Shown one piece after another: positions 15,009 to 31,067 of a stretch of 64,000 bases of DNA (its first letter is position 1; every line of letters begins with the position of its first letter). Location of the stretch: sequence record OL615012; one strand, written 5' to 3'. Source of the DNA: Shigella phage vB_SboM_Phaginator. The translations under genes were made by a program, and so were the position numbers. The notes under the pieces are model-generated. The model saw only the letters and a program-made list of their open reading frames with translations. It made no database searches and was not told the origin of the DNA.

Positions 15009-15038
15009 ATTATACCATACTCATTTTGGAAAGTAAAC
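15009..15038 (-). promoter_or_regulatory. T4-type early promoter
   Basis: Minus strand GTTTAC-18 nt-TGGTATAAT. Confidence 0.7.
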
Positions 15039-15046
15039 CAGTAAAA

Positions 15047-15073
15047 TGAAAAAGGACTCCCGAAGGAGTCCTT
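15047..15073 (-). terminator. intrinsic terminator after soc
   Basis: Minus strand AAGGACTCC-UUCG-GGAGUCCUU followed by a U-run. Confidence 0.7.
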
Positions 15074-15077
15074 GAAT

Positions 15078-15323: not shown

Positions 15324-15339
15324 GTAATTCTCCTTTTAT

Positions 15340-15549
15340 TTAAATTACATGATTATTTATAATAAATTCTCGCGGAACGTTAAAATACCCAATTTTAGTT
15401 AATATAACAATATCGCCGTTAATAATTACCGGAGAATAATCTTCTGGAGCATTAAATTTCCAATGGGCTCTAATATTATATCCATCAGAACCAAATGCTC
15501 GAGTAGCCGGTCTCCCGGCTTTTTGCCACGCGTAGAAATCAAATTTCAT
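15340..15549 (-). CDS. hypothetical protein (69 aa)
   Basis: ORF-track ORF between soc and gene 56. Confidence 0.5.
   Translation of the reverse strand: MKFDFYAWQKAGRPATRAFGSDGYNIRAHWKFNAPEDYSPVIINGDIVILTKIGYFNVPREFIINNHVI
15354..15361 (-). promoter_or_regulatory. late promoter (TATAAATA)
   Basis: Exact TATAAATA on the minus strand ~45 nt upstream of the soc ATG. Confidence 0.7.
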
Positions 15550-15740
15550 TTTGAATGATCTATAATTAATTTTAAATCTTCTTCACTGACAAAAATTTCG
15601 TCAGGACCTTCTATAACTTCAACCATACGAAGTTGATTAGTTAAGAGCTCACATACGAGCTCCTTGTTATAATCTTTAAATAGCTGGTCAATACGTTTCT
15701 TATGGGCTTTCTTAAGCTGACGCTTATTTAAACGAGTCAT
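15546..15740 (-). CDS. hypothetical protein (64 aa)
   Basis: ORF-track ORF; ATGA overlaps at both ends. Confidence 0.5.
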   Translation of the reverse strand: MTRLNKRQLKKAHKKRIDQLFKDYNKELVCELLTNQLRMVEVIEGPDEIFVSEEDLKLIIDHSK

Positions 15741-16258
15741 TAATAACCTCGGTCTTGACGAGCGAAGTTTTCAGCATTTTTCAGGTAATAAAGTTTAAAG
15801 ATTTCTTCAGCTGACATTCCAAGAGCAATAAATTTATTCATGAAAAAGTGAAATTGGTCAATCAGTTCAAATTTAATTTCAAGCTGATCTTCGGGAGATA
15901 AATCTTGAATTTTCTTGGATTGCATTTCAGAATAACGTTTCTTCCAAGGTTTCCATACAGCAGAAGCTTCTTTTTCACCATTACTCATACCACCAAGAGA
16001 AGTATATAGTTCGCGAGTTTCATCTGCGATATAATCGTCTTGGTTTCGCAACCAAGCAAGAACTTCTCCTGCAGTTTCAAGTGAATCAGGATGACGATTT
16101 GTTTCTGGTTTATCATTAGCCAAACGAATCTGTAAATGCCGCTGCATATCAAGCATAACCTGCAGTGGGTCAATATTGTGCATAATATTCTCAGCATATG
16201 CACGATTTGCTTTATCAACGCCTTCGATCAAATGAGCACATTCATTAAAGTAAGCCAT
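15740..16258 (-). CDS. 56: dCTPase/dUTPase (gp56)
   Basis: Start trimmed to MAYFNECAHLIEG..., giving 172 aa (T4 gp56 ~171 aa). Confidence 0.85.
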   Translation of the reverse strand: MAYFNECAHLIEGVDKANRAYAENIMHNIDPLQVMLDMQRHLQIRLANDKPETNRHPDSLETAGEVLAWLRNQDDYIADETRELYTSLGGMSNGEKEASAVWKPWKKRYSEMQSKKIQDLSPEDQLEIKFELIDQFHFFMNKFIALGMSAEEIFKLYYLKNAENFARQDRGY

Positions 16259-16292
16259 TATTTTTCCTTTCAATTCATGGGTTAGTAGATTA

Positions 16293-16317
16293 ATTATACA
16301 ATAAATATATAAAGCAA
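16293..16317 (-). promoter_or_regulatory. MotA-dependent middle promoter candidate for gene 56
   Basis: Minus strand TTGCTTTA (MotA box), 11 nt, TATAAT, ~35 nt upstream of the gene 56 ATG. Confidence 0.5.
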
Positions 16318-16329
16318 TAAGGAGGACAT

Positions 16330-16530
16330 ATGGTACAAAAATTAATGGCACTTGTTAATGCCATAAAAGGTAATAAAAAACGTATAGCTTTTACTATTTC
16401 TGCTATGGTAGGAATTTTACTCTGGAACTTTATTCTATCACCTGTTGCAATTGCACATGGTATTAATATTCCAGTAGTTACTCTTGATACATTTGTAGAT
16501 TTAGCATTTGCTTTAGTTGGGTTAATTTAA
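16330..16530 (+). CDS. small hydrophobic protein (66 aa) on the opposite strand
   Basis: Plus-strand ORF after AAGGAGG; hydrophobic sequence; stop overlaps the gene 61 stop; lies where T4 has dam as I recall. Confidence 0.35.
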   Translation: MVQKLMALVNAIKGNKKRIAFTISAMVGILLWNFILSPVAIAHGINIPVVTLDTFVDLAFALVGLI

Positions 16531-17555
16531 ATCTTAGCATATTTAGATAACCGCATTTTAGCCATCAACCCCTGGGCAATATTATTTTTCATATATTCCA
16601 TAATTTGTTCAGGGGTTGCACCTTCCTTTCTAATCATATCATTGACATCTTTTGATTTCCAGGGAGATTTATCCCAAAACATAACCCTTTCTCCTGCATC
16701 AACTAATTTAGTCATTCGCTTGATAGTGTCAGGGTGACGAGGTTCATTATCTAAAACCCACACTCGTCTATCTTTAAATGGAACAACTTCTAGGTCTAAT
16801 TGACCGCCAGTAATGGCTATACCATTTTCAATAAAAAGTGAATCGATGGGTCCTTCTAGAACATATACATCACCATCTTTAACTCGTTCAACACCGTAAA
16901 TTTTTGTTGCCTCAGGATAAGCTTTGATGGTGATATACTTTTGTGGAGCATCTTTCTTTAATGCACGTCCTTGAAAAGACTCAGCTTTTCCATTAGCATT
17001 ATAAATTGGAATAACAAGACGAGGCTCAGAAATTTCCTTTTTGTATGTTCCCGGTGCTATGCTATTAACTAATTTAGGCCATTCGGTTGTAAACCAAAGA
17101 TATTTCCATTTATCCTTTGGAATACAACGAGCTTTTACATATTTTATAATTGGATGGTCTTCCGCCAGTTTATCTAATCTAACACATGACGGAAGAGATT
17201 TAATTATTTTCTTCTCAGGTTGCTTAGGAAGTTCTTTAGGTTTTTCTACTGGACGACTTTTACCTTTTTCTTTTCTTATTTCAAAGATATACTCACGATA
17301 TAAATCAGGTTCAAACTCCTTTAAATATATTCCGATTGGTGCATGATAATTACAGTTATAACAATGAATATTTCCTTCATTATTATCGCCATAATACCAT
17401 CCACGGGCTTTATTTTGATCGGTTTTTGAATCTCCACAAACAGGACATCTAAACCGTAATTTAAAAGTTGAACTATTATTTACTTGTGTGAATTTAGGTA
17501 AATGAGCTAATGCACGGTATGCAAACTCATTATCAATCCAAGGTATTGATGACAT
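16527..17555 (-). CDS. 61: DNA primase (gp61)
   Basis: 342-aa ORF, T4 gp61 length; zinc ribbon CPVCGDS...CYNC. Confidence 0.9.
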   Translation of the reverse strand: MSSIPWIDNEFAYRALAHLPKFTQVNNSSTFKLRFRCPVCGDSKTDQNKARGWYYGDNNEGNIHCYNCNYHAPIGIYLKEFEPDLYREYIFEIRKEKGKSRPVEKPKELPKQPEKKIIKSLPSCVRLDKLAEDHPIIKYVKARCIPKDKWKYLWFTTEWPKLVNSIAPGTYKKEISEPRLVIPIYNANGKAESFQGRALKKDAPQKYITIKAYPEATKIYGVERVKDGDVYVLEGPIDSLFIENGIAITGGQLDLEVVPFKDRRVWVLDNEPRHPDTIKRMTKLVDAGERVMFWDKSPWKSKDVNDMIRKEGATPEQIMEYMKNNIAQGLMAKMRLSKYAKI

Positions 17556-17557
17556 TT

Positions 17558-17722
17558 TTACTCTTCTTTTTCTTTAGATTCCTCTTTTTTCTTTTTAGGA
17601 ATCTGTTCAGGACCTTTATTTACTACAGCACCTGACGTTGTTCCAGTAGAGATATTTTCAGGATTACCACCTGAATCTCCAGCGACCATATCTTCTTTAA
17701 TAAATTCTTTATATGTTTTCAT
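17558..17722 (-). CDS. small charged peptide with internal-protein-like N-terminus (54 aa)
   Basis: Hand-translated MKTYKEFIKEDMVAGDSGGNPENISTGTTSGAVVNKGPEQIPKKKKEESKEKEE; GAGGT SD; below the 60-aa track cutoff. Confidence 0.45.
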   Translation of the reverse strand: MKTYKEFIKEDMVAGDSGGNPENISTGTTSGAVVNKGPEQIPKKKKEESKEKEE

Positions 17723-17723
17723 A

Positions 17724-18080
17724 TTAACCTCTATTCATAAAAGCATTAAAAATTTGGTCATCAATAGATGGCGCAGTAATATTTTCTGCATCATTTAGCA
17801 AATCATTAATTTCATCAGATAGCATAACACATGTACCTTTATTTCCTGTAATTGTTACTGCACAATTACGAACGTTTTCTTTATCAAATTTTAGGTTAAT
17901 ATTTTCGTAGTGAAAATCCTTTAATGCCGAATATATCTTTAAAATGAAATTGTCTTTTACTACAATAAACCCAACCTCACTATTAAAACGCGGTTCATGG
18001 AAACTGTAATAAACCTTTTCATCTATAAAATCGTATGAAATTTTTTCCATTTTTAAATATGAAAATTCAGAACTATACAT
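17724..18080 (-). CDS. hypothetical protein (118 aa)
   Basis: C-terminus IDDQIFNAFMNRG and its 3' DNA repeat the end of the next ORF. Confidence 0.6.
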   Translation of the reverse strand: MYSSEFSYLKMEKISYDFIDEKVYYSFHEPRFNSEVGFIVVKDNFILKIYSALKDFHYENINLKFDKENVRNCAVTITGNKGTCVMLSDEINDLLNDAENITAPSIDDQIFNAFMNRG

Positions 18081-18081
18081 A

Positions 18082-18714
18082 TTAACCTTTATTCATAAAA
18101 GCATTAAAAATTTGATCGTCAATAGAAACTTTTACTTTAGGCTGTTCTTCAAACGGTAATTCATATCCACATATTACAATTTTGTGATCGATACCAAAAT
18201 ACACAGAAGCAATATTATTAATATTATTTTCAGTGAAATCTAAATCAACATCAATATCTTTTTGACTAACGCTCAAAGGATAATTAATACGAATAATTCG
18301 ATTATCTTTAACAAAGATTCCACCGACATACTCTGTGCTGCGTTTAAAGTTTACACGTTTCCTAAATGAAAAATATTCAGGTTCTTTATGGGCTCGACTC
18401 ATAGGGCTTAAAGTGTATTCCGAATATGAAATATCAAATCCTACACCTTCAATATGAGCCAAAGTGTCATGATTAAACCAATTATAATCGTATGCCAAAT
18501 CCATTAAATTGTAATATGTGAAAGGCACCGGATTAACATCATATGTTGTACCTTTAAAATCTGCCCAGGCAACGATTTCGTTATCTTTAACAATTACAAA
18601 AATTGTGCCAATAAGATATCCACGGTTATTTTCATCAGGCGTTATATTATAACATTGTGCATCAGGAAATTTACCGTATTTAAACGGTGGATTTTTGTGC
18701 ATATAATAAATCAT
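18082..18714 (-). CDS. hypothetical protein (210 aa)
   Basis: C-terminus IDDQIFNAFMNKG; T4 61.2-like position. Confidence 0.6.
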   Translation of the reverse strand: MIYYMHKNPPFKYGKFPDAQCYNITPDENNRGYLIGTIFVIVKDNEIVAWADFKGTTYDVNPVPFTYYNLMDLAYDYNWFNHDTLAHIEGVGFDISYSEYTLSPMSRAHKEPEYFSFRKRVNFKRSTEYVGGIFVKDNRIIRINYPLSVSQKDIDVDLDFTENNINNIASVYFGIDHKIVICGYELPFEEQPKVKVSIDDQIFNAFMNKG

Positions 18715-18715
18715 A

Positions 18716-19009
18716 TTATTCGCCTGTGATTTCGGTTACGATATTTTTGTTATTAAAGTTTTTATCGCAATACAGAACATAATTATACTGCATTACACCA
18801 TCAGACTTAAGTTGTTTTTGCACTTCAGCTTTCATTTCAGGACGATCGCGCTCAACGATATTCATAATATCCGCTTCAATTTGAGTTTCAACTTCAGTCT
18901 GATCTGCAGTCATAGACCATTCACACAAGTCTTTATCATATCCTGCCATAGAAGGCTGAGCAGCACAAGAAGCCAAAGTAAAAATTGTAGCAAAAATAAA
19001 TTTTTTCAT
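18716..19009 (-). CDS. sp: Spackle (periplasmic, signal peptide)
   Basis: 97-aa ORF with signal peptide MKKFIFATIFTLASCAAQP; same length and position as T4 sp. Confidence 0.8.
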   Translation of the reverse strand: MKKFIFATIFTLASCAAQPSMAGYDKDLCEWSMTADQTEVETQIEADIMNIVERDRPEMKAEVQKQLKSDGVMQYNYVLYCDKNFNNKNIVTEITGE

Positions 19010-19037
19010 GATAATCTCCTCAGTAGTTTATGTTTAT

Positions 19038-19067
19038 ATAGTATATCAATTTCCAACAAAAGTAAAC
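19038..19067 (-). promoter_or_regulatory. T4-type early promoter
   Basis: Minus strand GTTTAC-18 nt-TACTAT, then GAGGAG and the sp ATG. Confidence 0.55.
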
Positions 19068-19069
19068 AG

Positions 19070-19327
19070 CTATTTTAAAACTTCTGCATAATCACATGTT
19101 ACAAACTGTTTCTCTAACTTGACGATTTTACGAAAGTATCTTTTGCATTGGCGAATCTGTCGCTTCGTAGGGCGCACAGCAAACTTAATAAATTCCACTC
19201 GACCAAATGGAGGACTTTCTTCTGCTGGAATATCTAACACCAATTCCCACGTATCCGCAATAAGTGCCTTGAATTGAGTATTTTTCCTAACATTATACGG
19301 AGTAGGTTTAAATAAAACAATATGCAT
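19070..19327 (-). CDS. hypothetical protein (85 aa), T4 61.4 position
   Basis: ORF-track ORF between dmd and sp. Confidence 0.55.
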   Translation of the reverse strand: MHIVLFKPTPYNVRKNTQFKALIADTWELVLDIPAEESPPFGRVEFIKFAVRPTKRQIRQCKRYFRKIVKLEKQFVTCDYAEVLK

Positions 19328-19328
19328 A

Positions 19329-19511
19329 TTATCCTCTGCAATCTACTTCACACACTTGCTTGTCATCAATGAAAGCTTTAACTAATGCTTTATTAACTTC
19401 AGCATATTGAGTAGTAGCCCATTGAACGTCATCTTTCATCATTGTGATTTCTTTAGTAAACATGCTTTCATTCTTAAACCACCCCATAAAAACTACCTTT
19501 ACTAATTCCAT
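19329..19511 (-). CDS. dmd: Dmd antitoxin (inhibitor of host RnlA/LsoA)
   Basis: 60-aa ORF MELVKVVFMGWFKNES... matches T4 Dmd as recalled; directly downstream of gene 41. Confidence 0.85.
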   Translation of the reverse strand: MELVKVVFMGWFKNESMFTKEITMMKDDVQWATTQYAEVNKALVKAFIDDKQVCEVDCRG

Positions 19512-19540
19512 AACAATCTCCTCATTTAACCAACAAGACT

Positions 19541-19570
19541 ACTATACCATAGTCTTGCCAGCTTGTAAAC
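19541..19570 (-). promoter_or_regulatory. T4-type early promoter
   Basis: Minus strand GTTTAC-18 nt-TGGTATAGT, then GAGGAG and the dmd ATG. Confidence 0.65.
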
Positions 19571-20997
19571 TAAAATTTTAATTCATTTGCCAAAGCATCT
19601 AACTGAGCTCGAGTGGATTCATTTCTTTGATAGCGATTCTGTTCAGCCTGAATCTGCTGTGAACCTGCTACTTCACTCACTTCAGTTGGAGTAGAATCTT
19701 GTTCAATTTCTACCCATTTCTGATTTCCCTTTTGAACACCCATCAAAAACTTATTCCACTTATTTTTATCACCATATCGTGATTTGATTTGCTTAATGAG
19801 TTGCTGTTCAGCAGCTGCTAGCTCCTCGGTTTCAATGACCGCAAGCATAAAATCGGCTGTTGCTGGAAGACCGGCAGATTCTGCAATATCGCTCATGTTA
19901 ACATCAGAAGAATCCCAAGCTTGTTTACCAACCTGTGCTGCGGTCCAAAGAACAGTTTCGGTTTCAACAGCAAGAGCACGCAATTCTTCTGCGATGGCTT
20001 TAACAGTTGTGTAACTATTTTCTGAATAAACTCTGATGCGGCAAGATTTACAAATACCTAGATAGTCAACAATAATGATTGTTGGAACAAAATTCTTCTT
20101 GAGCTTTAATTCGTTTAAAAGCGATCGAAATGTATTAGCGTCTGCTCCACCAGTAGGATACTGTTTAACGATTAAACGGCCGAGAGTAGATTTCTCACGC
20201 CATTTTTCCATTTTTCCTTTATATTCAGCGTAAGAAATATGCCCATCATCAATGTCATCAAGAGAAACGTCAAGCATATTAGCATCAATACGTTTAGCAC
20301 AGACTTCTTCTGCCATTTCCATGGAAATGTAAAGAACGTTATGTCCGAGCTGCAAATAATCTGCTGCCAATGAACACAGACCTAATGACTTACCAACGTT
20401 AACACCAGCCATTAAAACGTTCAGTGTTCCAGTTTCAGCTCCGCCTTTAGTAATTTTATTTAGAATTTTGAGTTTAAATGGAACTTTACGAGCTTTATTC
20501 ATATAAGATAGCCAACGTGCTTCATAATCATCCATCCAATCATGACCAACGTAGCTATCAAATGAAATTGACAATGCTTGTCGCATGATGTCAGGAATAG
20601 CACCAACATCCGGCATTTTCTTATTTCGTTTTTCCGGAGGAAGCTCAGCATTAGTTTGAATTTCAATTATTTTAGATGTGGCGTTAAACATCGCCCTTTG
20701 CTGAACATATTTTTCTGTTTCTTTTACTAACCAGCTATGGTCTTCCGGAGAATCGGCCAGTTTTGAAATAAGTGTTTTTACACCAGAATATTCTGTTTCA
20801 GTAAATGAACTATTTTCTAACGCAACATTTAACGCATTAATAGATGGAACGCTATGGTACTCATTAACATGAGATTTAATTAATTTGAATGTATTTTTAG
20901 CTGGACCACTTTCAAAATATTCTGAATCCATATATGGCCAAACTTTTGAAAAATAAGCTTGATCAAATATGAGATGAGAAAGAATAATTTCTACCAC
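19570..20997 (-). CDS. 41: replicative DNA helicase (gp41)
   Basis: 475-aa ORF, T4 gp41 length; DnaB-like Walker A GVNVGKS. Confidence 0.9.
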   Translation of the reverse strand: MVEIILSHLIFDQAYFSKVWPYMDSEYFESGPAKNTFKLIKSHVNEYHSVPSINALNVALENSSFTETEYSGVKTLISKLADSPEDHSWLVKETEKYVQQRAMFNATSKIIEIQTNAELPPEKRNKKMPDVGAIPDIMRQALSISFDSYVGHDWMDDYEARWLSYMNKARKVPFKLKILNKITKGGAETGTLNVLMAGVNVGKSLGLCSLAADYLQLGHNVLYISMEMAEEVCAKRIDANMLDVSLDDIDDGHISYAEYKGKMEKWREKSTLGRLIVKQYPTGGADANTFRSLLNELKLKKNFVPTIIIVDYLGICKSCRIRVYSENSYTTVKAIAEELRALAVETETVLWTAAQVGKQAWDSSDVNMSDIAESAGLPATADFMLAVIETEELAAAEQQLIKQIKSRYGDKNKWNKFLMGVQKGNQKWVEIEQDSTPTEVSEVAGSQQIQAEQNRYQRNESTRAQLDALANELKF

Positions 20998-21006
20998 ACT
21001 TACTCC

Positions 21007-21369
21007 TTAAAAGAATTTAAACTTTTTCTTTGACCTTTTATTAAATGCATCTTGTAGTTGCATTGTAATACATTTTTCTACATGAGGAGCTAACTCAGCT
21101 TTTCTTTCTTGGTCAAGAACAGCAAAGTCCATTACAACCTTTCCATCAACCCAATCCAGTTTAGTTACATACACTATATGTGTAGAACCATCTTCTAGTT
21201 TAATGACAATCTCCTGGATAACATTTTCCATGGCAGATTTAATTATCTTAAGAGATTCATTAAAAAGACGTTCTTTTCTTTCTTCTTCCCCCTCCGAAGA
21301 GGGGGATTCGTCGATAATTTCTAGATCTAAATCTAAATCATCTTTATTCATTAAATTCTTCCATATCAC
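21007..21369 (-). CDS. 40: gp40-like protein
   Basis: 120-aa ORF between uvsX and 41 as in T4; start may be the internal Met at 21351. Confidence 0.65.
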   Translation of the reverse strand: MIWKNLMNKDDLDLDLEIIDESPSSEGEEERKERLFNESLKIIKSAMENVIQEIVIKLEDGSTHIVYVTKLDWVDGKVVMDFAVLDQERKAELAPHVEKCITMQLQDAFNKRSKKKFKFF

Positions 21370-22525
21370 TTAACTGTTCGAGGTCAGTTTCTAAATCAGC
21401 TGCTGATTTACTTTTACTTTCTGGAGATTTAAATTTTTCAACCTTTGAGTTAATCAATTCATCAACTTCAGCTTCAACAATTTCATTACTATCAATAGCA
21501 CCTAATTGATAAGCACGTTTAATAGCATCTCGGAATGGTTGATGCTTAAATAAAGGACCCCAGAATGTAGTGCAGTTGGTATCTTTTGCACGCCAAGATT
21601 TTTCTTCGCGAATCATCTCGCCGGTTTCTTCGTCAAGAAATTCACGAGCATACCAACCATTTTTAGGTTTTACTACAAATCCTAATTCAAGAGCCATATC
21701 TAGCAATCCAGAATAAGGATCAATACCACCGTCAAATTTAACATCAATAAAGAATTTACTTTTTTCTTTAACGGTACGAGATTTTTCTACATTTAGAACA
21801 AATTGATACCCCTGAAGATCAGAACCATCTTTAATCTGACGCTTACCGATAATGAATACTGTATCAGCCGAATACATTACGCCTGTACCACCTGTCATCA
21901 CGGTTTTACTAAACATTTCAATTGTTTCAATTGTATGGTTAACCGCAACGCACGGAATATTTTTAATGCTAAAATAAGGAGTAACAATACGGAATAATGA
22001 CTTCAGTGATTTAGCACGAGTCATATCTGCCACAGATTTTTCATTTAAGGCATCTTCCGTTTCTTTCTTAGAAGCCATATTACCGATTGAGTCGATGAAT
22101 ACAATAACCTTTTCACCACGCTCAATAGCTTCAAGCTGGTTCACCATATCAATTTTCAGCTGTTCAACTGACTGAATCGGCGTATGAATTACTCGTTCCG
22201 GGTCAACTCCCATGGATCGCAAATAAGCTGGAGTAATACCAAATTCACTATCATAGAATAGACAAACCGCGTCAGGATATTTGTTCAAATATGCCGCAAC
22301 CATAGTCAAAGACATATTTGATTTAAAGTGTTTAGAAGGCCCTGCGAAAATAGTTAAACCAGACTGCATGCCGCCATCAATCGCACCAGAAATAGCAATA
22401 TTAAGCATTGGGATTTTTGTACGGATTACATCCTTTTCATTAAAGAATTTAGATGTAGTCAGTTCAGCAGTCATTTTAGAAGTGGAAGCTTTAATCAAAC
22501 GGGATTTTAAATCTGCAATAGACAT
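21344..22525 (-). CDS. uvsX: UvsX recombinase (RecA-like)
   Basis: 393-aa ORF MSIADLKSRLIKASTSK...; near-identical to T4 UvsX as recalled. Confidence 0.95.
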   Translation of the reverse strand: MSIADLKSRLIKASTSKMTAELTTSKFFNEKDVIRTKIPMLNIAISGAIDGGMQSGLTIFAGPSKHFKSNMSLTMVAAYLNKYPDAVCLFYDSEFGITPAYLRSMGVDPERVIHTPIQSVEQLKIDMVNQLEAIERGEKVIVFIDSIGNMASKKETEDALNEKSVADMTRAKSLKSLFRIVTPYFSIKNIPCVAVNHTIETIEMFSKTVMTGGTGVMYSADTVFIIGKRQIKDGSDLQGYQFVLNVEKSRTVKEKSKFFIDVKFDGGIDPYSGLLDMALELGFVVKPKNGWYAREFLDEETGEMIREEKSWRAKDTNCTTFWGPLFKHQPFRDAIKRAYQLGAIDSNEIVEAEVDELINSKVEKFKSPESKSKSAADLETDLEQLSDMEEFNE

Positions 22526-22602
22526 TCATTTTTTCCATAGGCATCATTATATTTTCCTCACTGGTTAAAGATAGGGTAATTATAACACAATAAATTTAGG
22601 CA

Positions 22603-23451
22603 TTAATCGACTGCTATTGGATGAATAGCATTAAACTTATGAAACGCTTCTGATTTTTCTTTGCGCGAAACACACATGCGAAGAACCTTTAATGGCTCGT
22701 CTTCTTCACCCAACGATTTTCGTTTTTCAATATTCGACGTTTTCCAACGAGCTTGCTCTGGAAACTCTCTATTGATTTGCTCAAGCGCTCTATTATGTTT
22801 AGAATTACTGCGAATTGAACTGCACCCGCCAGGAGCTTGTGCTTTTCCAGATACAACCAGATATTTGAACAAGGCCAAATGCGGATAACCTTGATTAATT
22901 AAATTGAGAAATGCATACATATCTTCGCATAAATCAATTTTTCCATACCCAATTTGTTCTGTCGTAAGTTTTCCGAGGTCATACCATGTATTCGTGAATC
23001 CATATGAATTTTCACGATAATTACCCCAAGATGAAGTAATTTTAAAAATAGGTAGACGAGCATGGCCATGATAATACCCACAATCCATGGCATCCTCAAC
23101 ATATTGAATCAATTCATAGAACTGTTCACGAGTCAATTGATTGACTTTATCTACGCAACGACGATCATCTCTTTTTCGCATTGAACTCATACGAATAGTA
23201 GTATCATCGTCAATCATCCAGATTCGTTGACCTGCATACATATCAGTAATTGCTTTACGAGTACCGGCAATTCCGTTTACATCATCAGGAATAGTTATAA
23301 TTTTAGCTCTAGACCCATAAGCGTCATGATAAGCTTTTTCTTCATGTTCACGCACTACAATATGTGGTTCATAATCAGTCGGAAACATATCAAGGGCAGA
23401 AACTGCCCCTACGCGTTGATAGCTTGGAATTACGAATTGAATCATTTCCAC
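22603..23451 (-). CDS. glycosyltransferase at the beta-gt locus, putatively beta-glucosyl-HMC alpha-glucosyltransferase
   Basis: 282-aa ORF between uvsX and 42; not the ~351-aa T4 beta-gt; IDDDTT looks like a GT-A DxD motif. Confidence 0.6.
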   Translation of the reverse strand: MEMIQFVIPSYQRVGAVSALDMFPTDYEPHIVVREHEEKAYHDAYGSRAKIITIPDDVNGIAGTRKAITDMYAGQRIWMIDDDTTIRMSSMRKRDDRRCVDKVNQLTREQFYELIQYVEDAMDCGYYHGHARLPIFKITSSWGNYRENSYGFTNTWYDLGKLTTEQIGYGKIDLCEDMYAFLNLINQGYPHLALFKYLVVSGKAQAPGGCSSIRSNSKHNRALEQINREFPEQARWKTSNIEKRKSLGEEDEPLKVLRMCVSRKEKSEAFHKFNAIHPIAVD

Positions 23452-24182
23452 TCACCGTTATAATCTTTTTTCACAATATGAGTTTCGCCAGTATTCCACC
23501 AATGATCAACCAAGTAAAAATGACGAGAATATACATGAAGACTTCCAACATTCCATATAATAGAACCTGCTTTATACTGACGAGTTGAATCGCCGGCATT
23601 CAAATCAGATACTAATTTATCTAATACGTATTTTTGCCATGCATAATCATTACGGAATCCGAAGACCACATCATTTGAGCGCATGCTTACTACTGCATTG
23701 ACTTTCTTATCACGAATCAGGTACTGTACTGTATTAGTACACATGAAATCTGACATACCATCTTTATTGTAATCAAATTGCATGGATGGACGAGTATAAA
23801 TCATGATACCACGTCGAGAATCAGGATTTTGACCAAGTTCAGCTAAACACATATCATACTGGGCATAGTTATCTTCTGACCAAATAGCCCAACCATAATT
23901 CGAGTTAATTTCGCCTTTAGAAGATGCTACCTGCTGCCAAATCTTTGGTGTTTCACCTGGAATATCTTTAACAAACAAGCTCTTAGATTTATACCATTCA
24001 AGTTCACGCTGAATGTATTCATCATTAAGAGCGCCAAAAATAAACGGTTCATCTGCTACAAATGATGCGCCAATAATTTCAATAGTTTTAACACCAGTTT
24101 TATCAACTACGAAATCTTTTTCTTTTAATGCAAGCCCCAAATGAAGACGGATTTCTTCAACTGTCATAGAGTCACTAATCAT
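23442..24182 (-). CDS. 42: dCMP hydroxymethylase (gp42)
   Basis: 246-aa ORF, T4 gp42 length; thymidylate-synthase-like fold. Confidence 0.9.
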   Translation of the reverse strand: MISDSMTVEEIRLHLGLALKEKDFVVDKTGVKTIEIIGASFVADEPFIFGALNDEYIQRELEWYKSKSLFVKDIPGETPKIWQQVASSKGEINSNYGWAIWSEDNYAQYDMCLAELGQNPDSRRGIMIYTRPSMQFDYNKDGMSDFMCTNTVQYLIRDKKVNAVVSMRSNDVVFGFRNDYAWQKYVLDKLVSDLNAGDSTRQYKAGSIIWNVGSLHVYSRHFYLVDHWWNTGETHIVKKDYNGEWK

Positions 24183-24189
24183 TTAAACC

Positions 24190-24339
24190 TCAATTGATGC
24201 ATTCATATTTAAATTGTAACAGTAATAAACCCCACCCTATGATAAGAGTTGGAATCATAGCAGGAACTGTTACGCTATAGTATATACTTATTATAACCAT
24301 CAAGATTAAAAGCAACACTGCTATAATTTTGCTTTTCAT
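24190..24339 (-). CDS. small membrane protein (49 aa)
   Basis: Hand-translated MKSKIIAVLLLILMVIISIYYSVTVPAMIPTLIIGWGLLLLQFKYECIN; ATGA overlap with the imm stop. Confidence 0.45.
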   Translation of the reverse strand: MKSKIIAVLLLILMVIISIYYSVTVPAMIPTLIIGWGLLLLQFKYECIN

Positions 24340-24587
24340 TCTTTCTCTCTGATGATAATTACCTGATTTGGCTGTGCAGACTTTTTAGTTTCACCAGCAA
24401 TTGACCAAATAAATGTAATAAACCAACCAATAATTGACCAGTTAAACAGTAAAGATGTGAAAAAGATTCCTACTGTCGATTTTGACCCACGCATCAAGGC
24501 GATAAACCATGGAAGCATGTATATAATAATAGCCAACACACCTGAAACTAAAACCATAAAAATTGAACCTGCTACTAAAGTTTCCAT
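24336..24587 (-). CDS. imm: Imm superinfection-immunity membrane protein
   Basis: 83-aa hydrophobic ORF between 43 and 42, T4 Imm length. Confidence 0.8.
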   Translation of the reverse strand: METLVAGSIFMVLVSGVLAIIIYMLPWFIALMRGSKSTVGIFFTSLLFNWSIIGWFITFIWSIAGETKKSAQPNQVIIIREKE

Positions 24588-24594
24588 GTTTTCC

Positions 24595-24975
24595 TCACTT
24601 AGTCAAATTTTTTACACATGAATTATAAGAATTCACTACATACTCCATCGGAGCATTTTTACCAGTACGCCATTGGTAATTATTAGCCCAATTAGCCCAA
24701 AGCTCGGCGCAGTAGTTTTCAATTTTTTCTTCGCGTGTAATTACATCCGAATTACGATATGCTTGAGCAGATTCATCTGGACGAATAGCTTCGTCAAAAT
24801 TCGCCTGCATTTGTTCTACTGTTTGCTTTGGAGCTTCTTTATAACACTTGACATTAGGATTATAAAATTTGCTTGAACAGTTTACAATTTTTCCTACATC
24901 AGACTGATTTACTACCGGTCCTTGAGCTACACAACCAGTAAGACTTAATGCAATAACCAAAATAGCGATTTTCAT
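24595..24975 (-). CDS. predicted lipoprotein (126 aa)
   Basis: Signal peptide with lipobox MKIAILVIALSLTGC. Confidence 0.65.
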   Translation of the reverse strand: MKIAILVIALSLTGCVAQGPVVNQSDVGKIVNCSSKFYNPNVKCYKEAPKQTVEQMQANFDEAIRPDESAQAYRNSDVITREEKIENYCAELWANWANNYQWRTGKNAPMEYVVNSYNSCVKNLTK

Positions 24976-24985
24976 AATAATTTCC

Positions 24986-25222
24986 TCAAATGCAAGTAGT
25001 AATTACTCCAGTAGTGCTTATGCAGGTATTACCCATTTGCACACCTAAAGATCCATTTGTATTCACATGAAGATTATCATCAATTTTAACTGATATTTTA
25101 CCATTAGTGTGAATAACGGTGCTAGATTCAATCACAGGTTGAGTATCATTTTCAACACTAACAAATGGAACTGCTGCTAATGCAACTAAACAAACTGCTA
25201 AGCATCCCATAACAATTTTCAT
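24986..25222 (-). CDS. secreted small protein (78 aa)
   Basis: Trimmed to the ATG after GGAGAATAAA; signal peptide MKIVMGCLAVCLVALAAVPFVS. Confidence 0.6.
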   Translation of the reverse strand: MKIVMGCLAVCLVALAAVPFVSVENDTQPVIESSTVIHTNGKISVKIDDNLHVNTNGSLGVQMGNTCISTTGVITTCI

Positions 25223-25259
25223 TTTATTCTCCAAATCTGTATCAGTAGTTGATAGTTGT

Positions 25260-25289
25260 ATAGTACCATGGAAGAACAGTCTTGTAAAC
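25260..25289 (-). promoter_or_regulatory. T4-type early promoter (TACTAT -10) with conserved leader
   Basis: Minus strand GTTTAC-18 nt-TGGTACTATA then leader CAACTATCAACTACTGATACAGATTTGGAGAATAAAATG. Confidence 0.6.
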
Positions 25290-25371
25290 AGTTTTGTGAA
25301 AATTTTTTAGGGAATTCTAAAGGTCCAGAATCATCTGTTTTTCATAAGTATAGATTTATATTACTTGTATG

Positions 25372-25392
25372 AAAAAGGGACCCGGAGGTCCC
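25372..25392 (-). terminator. intrinsic terminator after gene 43
   Basis: Minus strand GGGACC-UCCG-GGUCCC followed by UUUUU. Confidence 0.7.
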
Positions 25393-25405
25393 TAGATTTG
25401 TTCTA

Positions 25406-28102
25406 TCAGCCAAACAGGAAGTCTAACGAAGCTTTTTCTTCATAGTCCATACCAGCCGATTCACACATGCCTGCAAGCGGTTTAACAAACGATTTTTGGA
25501 ACAAAGTCGAGTAGTCAATCCAAGACAGTACGTCAGAACGAATTTCTTTTGGAAGTTCTGTACCCGACGGCCAAGCAATGCATTTGTCACCAAATGGATT
25601 TCCTTCACGCAATGGAAGAACCATTACTTTATTTCCATCCAAAATTGGAGCTACACCTAAACCGTTAACAGCTCGACGATAAGTTAGCACCCCACGAATA
25701 TGGAACGGGCATTTAAATCCTGGCCAACCTTTATCGTCATATTTCGCTATATCGTTCGCGGTTTTTACTTCAGCAATAACTTTATAGTCAAGTTGACGAT
25801 ATTCTTTCTCAAAGTTCTTATAGTATTCTTGAACAGACTCTTCACCTTCCTGAAGAATACGACGAATACTTTCTTCGAGAGCTTCTTGCACTGCTTTTGG
25901 TGTTGAACTCTGCTGAGTTTCCATACCCATGATTTTTAGATGTGGTTCAGCAAAACGCTTATCTTCCATATCATAAACGTTCAGAGCATAACGCTTTTTC
26001 GCTTTCCAAAATCCACCAACGCCCTTTGAACCAAGTGGAGGGCAAGAAATAGCTTCACGGTCCATATGCATCAGATGCTCGCGGTTATTCATATAATCAC
26101 ATAACTCACGATATGCAACATCAATCATAGGTTCCATCTTTTTCTTACCGAACTGATTCATGAATTCAACTAAATCGTTCTGCTCTTTGAATCGGTCAAG
26201 ACCAACTTTTTCAATAACTTTATCTACACAAACATATACCGAATCAGTATCACCTGCTGCAATGAAATCTTCGTCATTAGTTCCGCATACTTTATTCAGA
26301 TATTCATTAATTTTACGAGCAATCCACTGAATACCAACTTGGCCGAAAATTGTGATAGCAGTAGCATTTCGCAAATCATAGTAACGGAAATGAATATTAC
26401 CAAGAGCACCATAAAGACTGTTAATAAGAATTTTACGGTTCAGCTGATTTGTATTAGCAAGTGTAGCTGCTTTTTCACATTCCTCAATCAGACTATTGAG
26501 AACAGATTCAGTATAATTCGATAGTTCATTTAAGAAATCATCATTGAACTTAACATATCGTTCAACTTCTGGTTTAGTTGAACAAGACCCTGCGCCTTTC
26601 ATAATAATCTTTTTAATAGCTTCGGCATTCATTTCTTCAGCGAACATTTTCTTTTTCCAATCTTTACGCTGGAAAAATACTTTAGCGATTTCCTTTGGAA
26701 TGATACCTTCTTGATGCTTATCATACATCCATCCATTCGGAGAACAAGAATATTCATCACTCGGTTTAGGAGCTGTTCCTGCGATATATTCATGAATTGG
26801 ATGAACTTTAAACTGACCACGAATAGTCTCAGGACTAATGTTAACCTGACGAATAATGCTCGGATACAGAGACGTCAAGTCAAAACTCATAATATATCGA
26901 CGAGCAATTGGTTTAGGTTCAAATACGAATGCACCCGGAAAACTCTGTTTAACGTGCGAACCTTGTTGAGGAATAACCTTATGTTCACCTTTCAATGAGT
27001 TAAAAATAATAGCATCCCAGGTTTTAATAGGACTCATTACACCGGAAAAAGGCATTTTAGCGTAATAAGACATACTTAAAACTAGATCGATAAACCCGCG
27101 AATTTTATCAATTGCTTGAACTGATTCTACGTCAATGATGTTATAACTAATGTATCGTTGATGATTAGTCTCACGAAGTTTATTAATAGGACCGTCGTAT
27201 GGTAATTTACCTTTTTTGGTTTCATGCTGAGCAACTGATTCCAAAGAGAATGACGGCAAATTAGTAAAAGCGAATTTCTTGTACAAATCTAAATAATCAA
27301 GAATAGATACGCCATCAATAGAATAAATTTCTTTGCTACCGTACATATTTTGAATTAGTTTAGATTTTACTCGACCGATTGGAGAGAAGCGTTTCATACT
27401 ACGTTCACCGAGAACCATTTTAACGCGATTCATGATATACGGAACGTCAAACCCCTCAATATTCCAACCAGTAAAAATAGCAGGTCGTTTCTGTTCCCAG
27501 AGATTGATATATTCCATGAGCATATCACGCTCATTATCGAATGGCATATAAATTACTCGGTCAAGAATTTCTTGAGGAACTTCATCACCACCTTCACAGT
27601 CAAGCTTAGCAGCTAACTTTGCATCCCATTTTGATACTGAACCATACATTGAATTCAAAAGGTCGAAAACATAAAAACGATCATCAATTGAATCGTAATG
27701 AGTGATAGCATCAATTTCATATTCAGCTTTCATTGGGTCAGGAAATTTATCACCAGTAACCTCAATGTCACAATTAGCTACACGAACAAATTTTCGGTCA
27801 TAAACAATTTCTGAACCGTATGTATCACTGATATAAGCGAGTTTAAAATCGTTCATACCGAGAGCTTCGAGACCGATGTCTTCCATTCGTTTCATCCAAT
27901 CTCGGGCATCTTTCATTGATGGAAATTTTTGAGGAGCACAGTTTTTACCGTAAATGTCTTTGTATTTTGATTCTTCCTTACAGTGTCTAAACATAGTTGG
28001 AAGATATTCTACTTCACGAGTACGTTCCTTTCCGTTTTCATCAATATAACGTTCAACAATGTTATTTCCGACTGTTTCAATAGAGATATAAAATTCTTTC
28101 AT
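25406..28102 (-). CDS. 43: DNA polymerase (gp43, family B)
   Basis: 898-aa ORF, T4 gp43 length; exonuclease and polymerase motifs (YGDTDS). Confidence 0.95.
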   Translation of the reverse strand: MKEFYISIETVGNNIVERYIDENGKERTREVEYLPTMFRHCKEESKYKDIYGKNCAPQKFPSMKDARDWMKRMEDIGLEALGMNDFKLAYISDTYGSEIVYDRKFVRVANCDIEVTGDKFPDPMKAEYEIDAITHYDSIDDRFYVFDLLNSMYGSVSKWDAKLAAKLDCEGGDEVPQEILDRVIYMPFDNERDMLMEYINLWEQKRPAIFTGWNIEGFDVPYIMNRVKMVLGERSMKRFSPIGRVKSKLIQNMYGSKEIYSIDGVSILDYLDLYKKFAFTNLPSFSLESVAQHETKKGKLPYDGPINKLRETNHQRYISYNIIDVESVQAIDKIRGFIDLVLSMSYYAKMPFSGVMSPIKTWDAIIFNSLKGEHKVIPQQGSHVKQSFPGAFVFEPKPIARRYIMSFDLTSLYPSIIRQVNISPETIRGQFKVHPIHEYIAGTAPKPSDEYSCSPNGWMYDKHQEGIIPKEIAKVFFQRKDWKKKMFAEEMNAEAIKKIIMKGAGSCSTKPEVERYVKFNDDFLNELSNYTESVLNSLIEECEKAATLANTNQLNRKILINSLYGALGNIHFRYYDLRNATAITIFGQVGIQWIARKINEYLNKVCGTNDEDFIAAGDTDSVYVCVDKVIEKVGLDRFKEQNDLVEFMNQFGKKKMEPMIDVAYRELCDYMNNREHLMHMDREAISCPPLGSKGVGGFWKAKKRYALNVYDMEDKRFAEPHLKIMGMETQQSSTPKAVQEALEESIRRILQEGEESVQEYYKNFEKEYRQLDYKVIAEVKTANDIAKYDDKGWPGFKCPFHIRGVLTYRRAVNGLGVAPILDGNKVMVLPLREGNPFGDKCIAWPSGTELPKEIRSDVLSWIDYSTLFQKSFVKPLAGMCESAGMDYEEKASLDFLFG

Positions 28103-28140
28103 AGATATTCCTTAGTTTATAGCCCGAGTTATTAGGCTCT
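28103..28140 (-). promoter_or_regulatory. gene 43 translational operator
   Basis: Leader AGAGCCUAAUAACUCGGGCUAUAAACUAAGGAAUAUCU-AUG matches the T4 gp43 autoregulatory hairpin plus RBS as recalled. Confidence 0.65.
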
Positions 28141-28160
28141 TGATATATTATACTCCAAAT

Positions 28161-28178
28161 AAGGGGCCGAAGCCCCTT
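28161..28178 (-). terminator. tetraloop hairpin (AAGGGGC-UUCG-GCCCCUU)
   Basis: 7-bp GC stem with UUCG loop between the small ORF and the gene 43 leader; weak U-tract. Confidence 0.45.
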
Positions 28179-28180
28179 GC

Positions 28181-28402
28181 TTAAATTAGTACTATTTGTC
28201 GGTGAAAAATTGTCATTCCATCTGCATTAATTGACTTAACGACTGCGGTAAAGTGTTTTTGTTCTGGATGAATTAATTTTTGAAATTCTACCTGAAATTT
28301 TAGTTGGAGGTTTTCTGGTAAATCAAAAAGTGTTTCTGTTGCAGAAAGATTATATTTTTCTTTAAGAGACGCCATGTATTCTTGTGGAGTTATAGCAGTC
28401 AT
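28181..28402 (-). CDS. small hypothetical protein (73 aa) between regA and 43
   Basis: Trimmed to MTAITPQEYMASLKEKY... starting 1 nt after the regA stop; I do not recall a gene here in T4. Confidence 0.4.
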   Translation of the reverse strand: MTAITPQEYMASLKEKYNLSATETLFDLPENLQLKFQVEFQKLIHPEQKHFTAVVKSINADGMTIFHRQIVLI

Positions 28403-28403
28403 A

Positions 28404-28772
28404 TTAATTACCAATCGTATATTTAGGAACGAGTTTCCATTCATGTTTTTGTTTAAAAGAAATAACTCGGAAGTTATTAGTTAAATCTTTCATAAAAGTT
28501 CTTTGACCAGGAACGATTTCAATCAGTCCCCAATCTTCTAATAGCCATGCAATCGAATCACGACGAACTTCATCTTCTTCTGTCATTTCAACTTGACGAC
28601 CATCCATACGAAGCATTTCTTTAAAATGAACGATATAATATAGTCCTTTTTTCTGAAGAATATGACAGGACTGATACAGAACTTTATCTTTATTATTAGC
28701 AATTCCCATACGAGTCAAAGTTTCTTTTACTTTCAGAAAATCTTCAGGTTTTTTAAGAGTAATTTCAATCAT
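28404..28772 (-). CDS. regA: RegA translational repressor
   Basis: 122-aa ORF MIEITLKKPEDFLK... matches T4 RegA as recalled. Confidence 0.95.
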   Translation of the reverse strand: MIEITLKKPEDFLKVKETLTRMGIANNKDKVLYQSCHILQKKGLYYIVHFKEMLRMDGRQVEMTEEDEVRRDSIAWLLEDWGLIEIVPGQRTFMKDLTNNFRVISFKQKHEWKLVPKYTIGN

Positions 28773-28773
28773 T

Positions 28774-29337
28774 TTACCATTCCAATGCTAGTTTTTTGAG
28801 TTGTTTCTGTTCTTTTACGTTCTTAGTCACTTCTTTCAAAAAATCATCCGTGACTAAACCTTTTAGTTCTTTTAATACTAAAGGAAGTTTTCCATTTTTA
28901 GTAAGAATTGATTTATAGTTAATTGCATCATTTGTGTTAACTTGATACCGCTTAGCAAGTAACTTAATAATCAATACTTCGGTGGAATCTTCAACTAGTT
29001 TTGCCCATTTACCATATCTTTTACCACGAGGAACTGCAGCCATTAGATAATTAAAATGGGCTTCATCACTTAAGCCTGATCCAATTAAATTCATTGCATA
29101 CACTGCCGGCATGCACTCCGGAAATTGTGACAATGCATTTTCAACCATGAATTTTGAATAATCTTTTTGAGCAATAGAGCATTTAGTTTTATTATTAATA
29201 GCTCCAATTATTTCAAAAAATTCATTTTCAGCTTTTTCCTTGAAAGAATCAGCAGCAGATTGGACAGCTGTCCAATCTTTTGAATACCAAGCAACTTGAT
29301 GCTCGTTTAATTGAATATCATCTTCAAATAAGCTCAT
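28774..29337 (-). CDS. 62: clamp loader small subunit (gp62)
   Basis: 187-aa ORF, T4 gp62 length, between regA and 44. Confidence 0.9.
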
Positions 29338-29338
29338 A

Positions 29339-30313
29339 TCACTTCCACTGCATTTCGCATGCCAATTGAATGAAAAGATATGCTAAATGTAATTCCGTAT
29401 TAGCCGCAATTCCATGATACTGGTTATTTTCACCAACAATTTCATACATACGAATAATACTCTGTGGAGTTACACGTGAATAGATTTCTTCGGCAAGTTT
29501 ACCCACGAACCACGAATAATCGGCTGCATATTTTGGTGCTAAAGCTCTGAGTTGTTTAACATCTTTATTTTTGAGAGACTCAAGAACATCATCAATAGCA
29601 CCACGATCGTTAGTAACCAGTGATAAAATACCAGCATCCAAAACACCTTTAGATGAATAACTATCGAGCTCGCCAATAGTTTTACGAAAATCAGGAAAAT
29701 TCTTTTTAACCAAAGCTGCTACAACTTTCATATCAGCTATAGCAATTCCTTCATGTTTACAGATTTCAGTCAATCGACGAATCATCTGCTTCATCATTTC
29801 AATTTTATCTTCATCGGTCGGTTGACCGAACGTAATAACTCGGCAGCGTGACTGAAGTGGTTTAATAATACCATCAATATTGTTAGCAGTAATAATAATA
29901 CTACAGTTTGAACTATAAGCTTCCATAAAGGAACGAAGATGTCGCTGAGACTCTGCTAATCCTGAGCGGTCAAATTCATCAATAACGATTACTTTTTGAC
30001 GACCATCAAATGAAGCGGCGCTGGCAAAATTAGTCAAAGGACCACGAACGAAATCAATTTTACAATCTGATCCATTCACAAACATCATATCAGCATTTAC
30101 ATCATGACACAATGCTTTTGCTACAGTTGTTTTACCTGTTCCTGGAGAAGGAGAATGAAGAATAATATGTGGAATCTTACCTTTACTTGTAATAGATTTA
30201 AAGGTTTCTTTATCAAAGGCGGGAAGAATACATTCATCGATAGTAGATGGACGATATTTCTGTTCAAGAATGTGTTCTTTTTCATTTACGGTAATCATAA
30301 TTTCCTCATTCAA
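29339..30313 (-). CDS. 44: clamp loader ATPase subunit (gp44)
   Basis: 324-aa ORF; Walker [14 protein letters not shown] Walker B. Confidence 0.9.
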
Positions 30314-30332
30314 GTTTTAGTGTAAATTATAA

Positions 30333-30346
30333 AGGGCCGAAGCCCT
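30333..30346 (-). terminator. tetraloop hairpin after gene 45
   Basis: AGGGC-UUCG-GCCCU immediately 3' of the gene 45 stop. Confidence 0.45.
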
Positions 30347-30349
30347 CTA

Positions 30350-31036
30350 TTAAAAATCGTGGGTAGAATCAGCTTCAAGAGCTACTACATAATTCGCGTG
30401 TTCACCTTCAAATTTAGCAGCACCTTGTTTACCTTTTGCCCAAAGCAGAAGTTTATAATTTCCTGGTTGCATTTTCATATTTGCCATATTGATAATGAAA
30501 TTAAATGTATTTTCACCATCATAATCACCAAGAGTCAAAGAATATTTAACACGAGTCAAAGCAGAATCTTCTACTTTATTAAAACCGTTAATTACGATTT
30601 TACCTTCTTTTACTGTGATAGCAATTGTATCAATCTGCAGACCACGAGATACACGCAACAGCTGTTGAAGGTCTTCAGCTTTAATTTCAGTAACAACAGA
30701 TGCTACCGGGAATGGAATTGGTTTATTAGGAGCAACTACTGTACTCGGATCGGCTGCTGGCCAAAAAATTGTTGAGCGGGCATCAGCAATTTTAATATTT
30801 CCATCTTCTGACTGAGAAATTTCTGCATCATCATTAACTAAAGACAGAATACCGAGAAAACCGTTCAAATCGTAAATTGCTACATCAAAATCAATAACGT
30901 CAGAAATATTTGCTTCCGCATAAGTTGTACCATTAACTGCACGAGTCATAATAAATTGACCTGATTTAAGCATAATGCCAGAGTTAATAGTAGCGAAATT
31001 TTTAAGCAGAGCAGTAGTATCTTTAGACAGTTTCAT
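30350..31036 (-). CDS. 45: sliding clamp (gp45)
   Basis: 228-aa ORF MKLSKDTTALLKNFATINSGI...; T4 gp45 length. Confidence 0.95.
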   Translation of the reverse strand: MKLSKDTTALLKNFATINSGIMLKSGQFIMTRAVNGTTYAEANISDVIDFDVAIYDLNGFLGILSLVNDDAEISQSEDGNIKIADARSTIFWPAADPSTVVAPNKPIPFPVASVVTEIKAEDLQQLLRVSRGLQIDTIAITVKEGKIVINGFNKVEDSALTRVKYSLTLGDYDGENTFNFIINMANMKMQPGNYKLLLWAKGKQGAAKFEGEHANYVVALEADSTHDF

Positions 31037-31067
31037 GTAATTTCCTTCAATTCAAATGAGATTTAAT

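What the first reader, a model, noticed from the sequence alone, without database searches (positions are those of the whole stretch)
22603..23451. Beta-gt locus holds a different 282-aa GT-A-like glycosyltransferase
Between uvsX and gene 42, where T4 encodes a ~351-aa beta-glucosyltransferase, this phage has a 282-aa protein with a DxD-like IDDDTT motif. The intact alpha-gt is present at 35057..36259. This fits the T2/T6 arrangement in which beta-glucosyl-HMC alpha-glucosyltransferase makes gentiobiosyl-HMC, which alters sensitivity to modification-dependent restriction.
Basis: partly seen in the sequence, partly recalled or inferred. Interest (0 to 1): 0.4.

Follow-up and report, generated by a model that had tools for sequence, protein, structure and literature searches.

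The report
T2/T6-type second DNA glucosyltransferase gene
This is the well-known T2/T6-type "beta-alpha" glucosyltransferase gene, which adds a second glucose to already glucosylated phage DNA; most T4-like coliphages carry it at this position, so the finding is correct but ordinary.

Summary
The ORF is real and intact. Its likely start is the ATG at 23445, which overlaps the gene 42 stop as ATGA. That gives 280 aa rather than 282.

It is the ortholog of beta-glucosyl-HMC-alpha-glucosyltransferase (ba-gt, also called TAGT, Pfam PF20691). It is 99% identical to the T2 and T6 enzymes and sits at the same position between uvsX and gene 42.

An intact alpha-gt lies at 35057..36259. No beta-gt, segA or dam was found in the window.

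The window is collinear at 97% identity with Durham phage Solly, and each of its two transferases differs from Solly's by one residue. Solly virion DNA was measured as about 1/3 5-hmC, about 2/3 gentiobiosyl-hmC and a trace of alpha-glucosyl-hmC.

The fold, the distribution (alpha-gt plus TAGT is the majority arrangement and T4 is the exception) and the defence consequences are all published. Verdict: reader supported; already known; low interest.

Side notes:
- T2 alone carries R11H at a family-invariant residue.
- Both public T6 sequences carry lesions in this gene.

The parts
22603..23445 (-). ba-gt / TAGT coding sequence, 280 aa from ATG 23445 to TAA 22603..22605.
   Evidence: ORF. ATGA overlap with the gene 42 stop. 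PHROG 842 at E=3e-89. PF20691 at 41.3 bits against a cut-off of 27.5. 99% identical to T2 and T6. 100% identical to the phage vB-Eco-KMB42 protein.
23203..23211 (-). Codons D79-D80-D81, the GT-A DXD-type motif (predicted to bind metal and UDP-sugar).
   Evidence: Invariant in 49 homologs down to 13% identity. Lies directly after strand E74-78 of the model. Aligns with the FLDDD of GT2 enzyme 9jma, but that match is weak (E=0.099).
23413..23415 (-). Codon R11 in the IPSYQR loop after strand 1 (predicted nucleotide-binding loop).
   Evidence: Invariant in 49 homologs. Aligns with IPTYNR of 9jma. The window has R; only T2 and SV76 records have H.
23442..24182 (-). Gene 42, dCMP hydroxymethylase. 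It makes the hmC precursor and lies immediately upstream, with overlapping stop and start codons.
   Evidence: PF00303 at E=1e-15. Annotated as dCMP hydroxymethylase in matching records.
35057..36259 (-). alpha-gt (GT-B). It makes alpha-glucosyl-hmC, the acceptor substrate of ba-gt.
   Evidence: PF11440 at E=1e-236. PDB 1xv5 at E=4e-257. 397/400 identical to T2. One residue different from Solly.
15743..16258 (-). Gene 56, dCTPase/dUTPase. It excludes cytosine from phage DNA and is part of the hmC pathway.
   Evidence: tblastn with the EL protein annotated 'dCTP pyrophosphatase': 98.3% over 172 aa. No Pfam hit at E<=1e-5.
21344..22525 (-). uvsX, the downstream neighbour that marks the boundary of the locus.
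   Evidence: PF21134 and PF00154.

Best explanation
The gene encodes the T2/T6-type beta-glucosyl-HMC-alpha-glucosyltransferase (ba-gt, also written g-gt or TAGT). It is a GT-A-fold enzyme that uses UDP-glucose. It acts after alpha-gt has placed an alpha-linked glucose on 5-hydroxymethylcytosine in newly replicated phage DNA. It then adds a second glucose in beta-1,6 linkage, giving gentiobiosyl-hmC.

Shown here:
- orthology to the T2 and T6 enzymes;
- synteny between uvsX and gene 42;
- an intact reading frame;
- a GT-A fold with the invariant DDD and R11;
- the presence of alpha-gt, gene 42 and gene 56.

Inferred from close relatives and the literature:
- the reaction itself;
- a T6/Solly-like modification pattern, in which most glucosylated sites are gentiobiosylated and roughly a quarter to a third of hmC is left bare;
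- the consequences for defence systems: shielding from enzymes specific for alpha-glucosyl-hmC (Brig1 in vitro, BapA), but no shielding from GmrSD/BrxU or from 5hmC glycosylases such as Brig3.
For: Sequence and family:
- 276/280 identical to T6 and 277/280 to T2.
- PHROG 842 'beta-glucosyl-HMC-alpha-glucosyltransferase' at E=3e-89.
- PF20691 TAGT above the gathering score.
- 688 phage records carry a homolog, about 472 of them at >90% identity, and most are annotated with this name.

Context:
- The gene order uvsX, ba-gt, 42, imm is the same as in T2, T6, Solly, EL, NR1 and QOTSP.

Structure:
- AlphaFold model with pLDDT 92.4 and pTM 0.90.
- Top BFVD hits are ba-gt and TAGT proteins.
- R11, R63 and D79-D81 are invariant in 49 homologs.

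Experimental proxy:
- The window's ba-gt and alpha-gt each differ from Solly's by one residue.
- The window is collinear with Solly at 97.07% identity over 25 kb.
- Solly DNA measured by HPLC/MS is about 1/3 5-hmdC, about 2/3 gentiobiosyl-mdC and a trace of alpha-glc-mdC (PMC13390438).

Genetics in T6:
- Deleting ba-gt converts T6 DNA to alpha-glucosyl-hmC only, and makes it a substrate for Brig1 and BapA (PMC11078745, PMC13160076).
Against: - No chemistry was done on this phage.
- T2 and T6 enzymes that are about 98% identical give 5% and 72% gentiobiosylation. EL-type phages give an intermediate level. Sequence identity therefore does not fix the extent of modification.
- Residue 40 is H in the window, Y in T2, Solly and EL, and N in T6. 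Its effect is unknown, although the position is variable.
- Only 64 kb of the genome is visible, so a b-gt homolog elsewhere cannot be excluded. One phage, KMB26, carries both genes side by side.
Confidence: 0.93

Rival explanations
1. The gene is an ortholog but works poorly, as in T2. Virion DNA would then be mostly alpha-glucosyl-hmC with only a few percent gentiobiosyl-hmC.
For: T2 carries a 99%-identical gene yet has only about 5% gentiobiosyl-hmC (PMC13160076, PMC11078745). The window's alpha-gt is 397/400 identical to T2's.
Against: The window lacks both substitutions that set T2 apart from the seven other sequences compared, R11H and P251S. R11H was also private to T2/SV76 in the collection-wide search. 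The window keeps the family-invariant R11. Its two transferases are each one residue from Solly's, and Solly is measured as high in gentiobiosyl-hmC (PMC13390438).
Confidence: 0.05
2. The protein is a TAGT-family transferase with a different donor or acceptor, for example one that adds another sugar or acts directly on hmC, rather than the classical second glucosylation.
For: The TAGT family is diverse. Many phages carry solitary TAGTs without alpha-gt or beta-gt, and the family also pairs with beta-gt (PMC13216743). Distant members are only 13-30% identical.
Against: It is 99% identical to the T6 enzyme, whose deletion removes gentiobiosyl-hmC (PMC11078745, PMC13160076). Closely related Durham phages contain gentiobiosyl-mdC and no other sugar (PMC13390438).
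Confidence: 0.02

Closest known systems
T6 and T2 beta-glucosyl-HMC-alpha-glucosyltransferase (ba-gt / g-gt / TAGT; T6 YP_010067197.1, T2 BBF63203.1)
   Same: 99% identical and 280 aa. Same position between uvsX and gene 42, with the same ATGA overlap with gene 42. Same partner, alpha-gt.
   Different: Three substitutions against T2: R11 not H, H40 not Y, P251 not S. Against the T6 RefSeq record: H40 not N, D55 not G, R106 not H, and DDD where that record has DD.
Durham collection phage vB_Eco_Solly (OY720021.1), glucosyl transferase SOLLY_044
   Same: One amino-acid difference in ba-gt (H40Y) and one in alpha-gt (I339T). 97.07% nucleotide identity, collinear over 25 kb. No dam gene in either. 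Solly's DNA modifications have been measured (PMC13390438).
   Different: A different isolate, with about 3% nucleotide divergence.
Pfam PF20691, TET-associated glycosyltransferase (GT-A fold, sister group to GT2)
   Same: Scores above the gathering threshold over the whole domain (residues 5-209). GT-A fold with a DXD-type motif.
   Different: The Tequatrovirus subfamily is a tight clade. It has an extra C-terminal region of about 70 aa (residues 210-280) outside the Pfam model.
T4 beta-glucosyltransferase (b-gt; GT-B fold, PDB 1JG7)
   Same: Occupies the same genomic position. It is also an inverting UDP-glucose transferase that makes a beta linkage on phage DNA.
   Different: No sequence similarity (best local E=2.2). 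Different fold, GT-B against GT-A here (PMC13216743). Different acceptor: bare hmC rather than alpha-glucosyl-hmC. In T4 it is accompanied by segA, which the window lacks.

Membership tests
T2/T6 ba-gt (beta-glucosyl-HMC-alpha-glucosyltransferase) | High full-length sequence identity to the T2 and T6 enzymes | tested here: met
   277/280 identical to T2 and 276/280 to T6. PHROG 842 at E=3e-89.
T2/T6 ba-gt (beta-glucosyl-HMC-alpha-glucosyltransferase) | Located between uvsX and gene 42, in the place of T4 b-gt | tested here: met
   for the window. for T6, T2 and T4.
T2/T6 ba-gt (beta-glucosyl-HMC-alpha-glucosyltransferase) | Co-occurs with the enzymes that make its acceptor: gene 42 hydroxymethylase, gene 56 dCTPase and alpha-gt | tested here: met
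T2/T6 ba-gt (beta-glucosyl-HMC-alpha-glucosyltransferase) | Intact reading frame with the conserved catalytic residues | tested here: met
   No stop codon or frameshift. R11, R63 and D79-D81 are present. Two public T6 records, by contrast, carry lesions.
T2/T6 ba-gt (beta-glucosyl-HMC-alpha-glucosyltransferase) | Transfers glucose from UDP-glucose in beta-1,6 linkage onto alpha-glucosyl-hmC DNA | not testable with these tools
   Only a proxy is available: Solly, one residue different, has about 2/3 gentiobiosyl-mdC (PMC13390438), and deleting ba-gt in T6 abolishes the modification (PMC11078745).
Pfam PF20691 TAGT / GT-A superfamily | Score above the Pfam gathering threshold | tested here: met
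   41.3 bits against 27.5, covering model positions 2-205 of 205.
Pfam PF20691 TAGT / GT-A superfamily | GT-A fold: a single Rossmann-like nucleotide-binding domain with an acidic DXD motif after strand 4 | tested here: met
T4 b-gt family (GT-B) | Sequence or fold similarity to T4 b-gt | tested here: not met
   BLASTP best E=2.2. The fold is GT-A. tblastn with T4 b-gt finds nothing in the window.

The most novel reading that the evidence does not exclude
The most novel reading concerns the gene family rather than this window. The long-known difference between T2 (about 5% gentiobiosyl-hmC) and T6 (about 72%) may be caused by T2's private R11H substitution in the family-invariant nucleotide-binding loop, possibly together with P251S, which makes the T2 enzyme only weakly active. 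On that reading, R11-type alleles such as the one in this window predict high gentiobiosylation. I did not find this explanation in the papers I searched, but the classical literature is not in the library.
Probability: 0.35. Interest if true: 0.3.

Novelty: already known. Interest (0 to 1): 0.1.

Why it matters
The main value is for annotation and for predicting phenotype. It tells a user of this phage to expect DNA of the T6/Solly type: gentiobiosyl-hmC plus a sizeable fraction of bare hmC and no beta-glucosyl-hmC. That pattern in turn predicts behaviour towards defence systems:
- still sensitive to GmrSD/BrxU;
- sensitive to 5hmC glycosylases such as Brig3;
- partly protected from Brig1-like and BapA-like enzymes.

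It reveals no new biology. The gene, its fold, its distribution and its role in counter-defence were all described between 1993 and 2026.

Tried and rejected
- **Relation to T4 b-gt:** rejected. There is no sequence similarity and the fold class differs.
- **Solved structure of a relative:** none found by sequence. With a family profile the only match was a GT2 enzyme at E=0.099. That match is used only to show how the motifs line up, not as evidence of homology.
- **A second primary transferase or T4-specific neighbours in the window:** no b-gt, segA or dam.
- **Promoter and terminator scan of 22300..24700:** no more sites than in shuffled sequence, so no regulatory claim is made from it.
- **GTG start at 23451:** rejected in favour of ATG 23445 (plus the annotations).
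- **Original cloning paper:** I recall it as Winkler and Ruger 1993. It could not be found in the library.
- **Not used:** The search of protein representatives and the metagenome and genome scans, because the answer was already clear.

Full report
**Observation.** The minus-strand ORF at 22603..23451 exists (282 aa from a GTG). The DNA reads ...GAG TGG AAA TGA TTC AAT..., so the ATG at 23445 overlaps the TGA stop of the upstream gene as ATGA. Every annotated ortholog I fetched starts at that ATG and gives an 843-nt gene: T2, Solly, EL, NR1 and QOTSP. The T6 RefSeq record starts at the same ATG but is 840 nt because of a one-codon deletion. The protein is therefore 280 aa. The flanking genes are uvsX (PF21134 and PF00154) and gene 42 (PF00303). 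The alpha-gt at 35057..36259 is intact: 400 aa, PF11440 at E=1e-236, PDB 1xv5 at E=4e-257 and 397/400 identical to T2.

**Identity.** PHROGs places the protein in phrog_842, 'beta-glucosyl-HMC-alpha-glucosyltransferase', at E=3e-89. Pfam gives PF20691, TET-associated glycosyltransferase, at 41.3 bits against a cut-off of 27.5. A tblastn search of 50,697 phage records finds homologs in 688. About 472 of these are above 90% identity, all in T4-like phages of enterobacteria, and another roughly 200 are at 60-80% identity in Klebsiella, Enterobacter and Citrobacter phages. The protein is 277/280 identical to T2 and 276/280 to T6, and 100% identical to the protein of phage vB-Eco-KMB42. The 4-kb neighbourhood is 98-99% identical to many Tequatrovirus genomes with the order uvsX, ba-gt, 42, imm. 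T4 instead has uvsX, segA, b-gt (351 aa), 42. The window protein has no detectable similarity to T4 b-gt, and the window contains no b-gt or segA homolog.

**Fold and motif.** I built an alignment of 49 homologs with identity to the query ranging from 98% down to 13%. AlphaFold2 run on it gave a confident model, with mean pLDDT 92.4 and pTM 0.90.
- Foldseek against viral models returned ba-gt and TAGT proteins.
- Five residues are invariant in all 49 sequences: R11, R63, D79, D80 and D81.
- D79-D81 follow strand E74-78 directly, which is the canonical position of the DXD motif in GT-A enzymes.
- A weak profile match to the GT2 glucosyltransferase 9jma (E=0.099) lines up IPSYxR with IPTYNR and miDDD with FLDDD.

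The same conclusion has been published for the T6 enzyme (PMC13216743).

**Mechanism.** From the literature:
- alpha-gt glucosylates hmC at the replication fork but cannot modify adjacent hmC, which leaves about 25% of hmC bare (PMC13160076).
- ba-gt then adds a second glucose, beta-1,6-linked to the first, giving gentiobiosyl-hmC (PMC11078745, PMC13160076, PMC6024577).
- Deleting ba-gt in T6 yields DNA that carries only alpha-glucosyl-hmC. That DNA is degraded by Brig1 in vitro, and the mutant phage is more sensitive to Brig1 in vivo (PMC11078745). The deglucosylase BapA releases glucose from it but not from wild-type T6 DNA (PMC13160076).
- GmrSD and BrxU still cleave gentiobiosylated DNA (PMC13216743, PMC13390438).

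An inverting GT-A enzyme that uses UDP-alpha-glucose to make a beta linkage fits this chemistry. That last point is an inference.

**Prediction for this phage.** Window 12001..37000 is collinear with Durham phage Solly at 97.07% identity in a single alignment. The window's ba-gt differs from Solly's only at residue 40 (H against Y), and its alpha-gt only at residue 339 (I against T). Solly DNA was measured as about one-third 5-hmdC, about two-thirds alpha-5-gentiobiosyl-mdC and a low background of alpha-glucosyl-mdC (PMC13390438). I therefore expect the same pattern here. This is an inference by proxy, not a measurement.

**How common it is.** A published survey found that the vast majority of phages with T-even-type transferases pair either alpha-gt or beta-gt with a TAGT. 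[quoted passage not shown] My own counts agree: about 472 records carry a T2/T6-type ba-gt at >90% identity, against 29 records carrying a T4-type b-gt at >90% identity.

**Side observations.**
- *T2.* Among 686 records, only the T2 records and SV76 carry H at position 11 (8 records). R11 is invariant in the family, and T2 is the phage with only about 5% gentiobiosylation. T2 is also the only one of the eight sequences compared with S251. P251 is conserved in at least 90% of the close homologs. This suggests, but does not show, that the T2 enzyme is only weakly active.
- *T6.* The T6 RefSeq record (NC_054907 / AP018814) has DD where every other sequence has DDD. The independent T6 record MH550421 has DDD but carries an amber codon at position 10, CAG to TAG, and its annotators started the gene downstream. 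Both public T6 sequences of this gene thus carry an apparent lesion, either real in those stocks or a sequencing error.
- *EL.* EL has intermediate gentiobiosylation. It carries seven substitutions in ba-gt and a T4-like alpha-gt allele.

**Verdict.** The feature is an already known gene in its usual place, and interest is low.

Noticed in passing
Window 23413..23415 (R11); L002 7283..8125 (T2): T2's ba-gt carries R11H at a residue that is invariant in 49 family members. H11 occurs in only 8 of 686 phage records, all of them T2 or SV76. T2 is the T-even phage with only about 5% gentiobiosyl-hmC. T2 is also the only one of the eight sequences compared with S251. This is a possible cause of T2's low gentiobiosylation. 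The window has R11 and P251.
   Followed up: partly
L001 3001..3840 (T6 NC_054907); L004 3138..3980 (T6 MH550421): Both public T6 sequences of this gene carry an apparent lesion. The RefSeq record lacks one codon of the invariant DDD, giving DD and 279 aa. MH550421 has an amber codon at position 10 (CAG to TAG) and is annotated from a downstream start. The RefSeq protein, YP_010067197.1, is the one used as the TAGT query in PMC13216743.
   Followed up: partly
Window 23391..23411, minus strand: A 6-bp G+C-rich hairpin (GGGCAG-TTT-CTGCCC) lies inside codons 12-18 of ba-gt. It is identical in the window, T2 and both T6 records. The scan found one such site where about one is expected by chance, so it may mean nothing.
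   Followed up: no
Window 22579..22602, minus strand (between the ba-gt stop and uvsX): The sequence TGCCTAA, an 11-nt spacer, then TATAAT preceded by TGT looks like a T4 MotA-dependent middle promoter for uvsX. It overlaps and follows the ba-gt stop codon. The resemblance is from my memory of the MotA-box consensus. The sigma-70 scan did not call it.
   Followed up: no
Window 24190..24339, minus strand: A 49-aa hydrophobic ORF sits between gene 42 and imm. It is annotated as 'Phage protein' in Solly, EL and NR1. No gene is annotated in the T4 record at the corresponding gap.
   Followed up: no
Window near 15743..16258 and its flanks: No dam (DNA adenine methyltransferase) homolog is present in the window. 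Solly's annotation likewise shows no dam gene in this region. T2 and EL have dam next to gene 56. PMC13390438 notes that the dam-carrying Durham phages are the ones with intermediate gentiobiosylation.
   Followed up: partly
OR539218.1 (phage vB-Eco-KMB26) 23132..25047: This Tequatrovirus has a 55%-identical b-gt homolog immediately next to a 96%-identical ba-gt. It may be the single phage with all three transferase types mentioned in the preprint version of PMC13216743.
   Followed up: no
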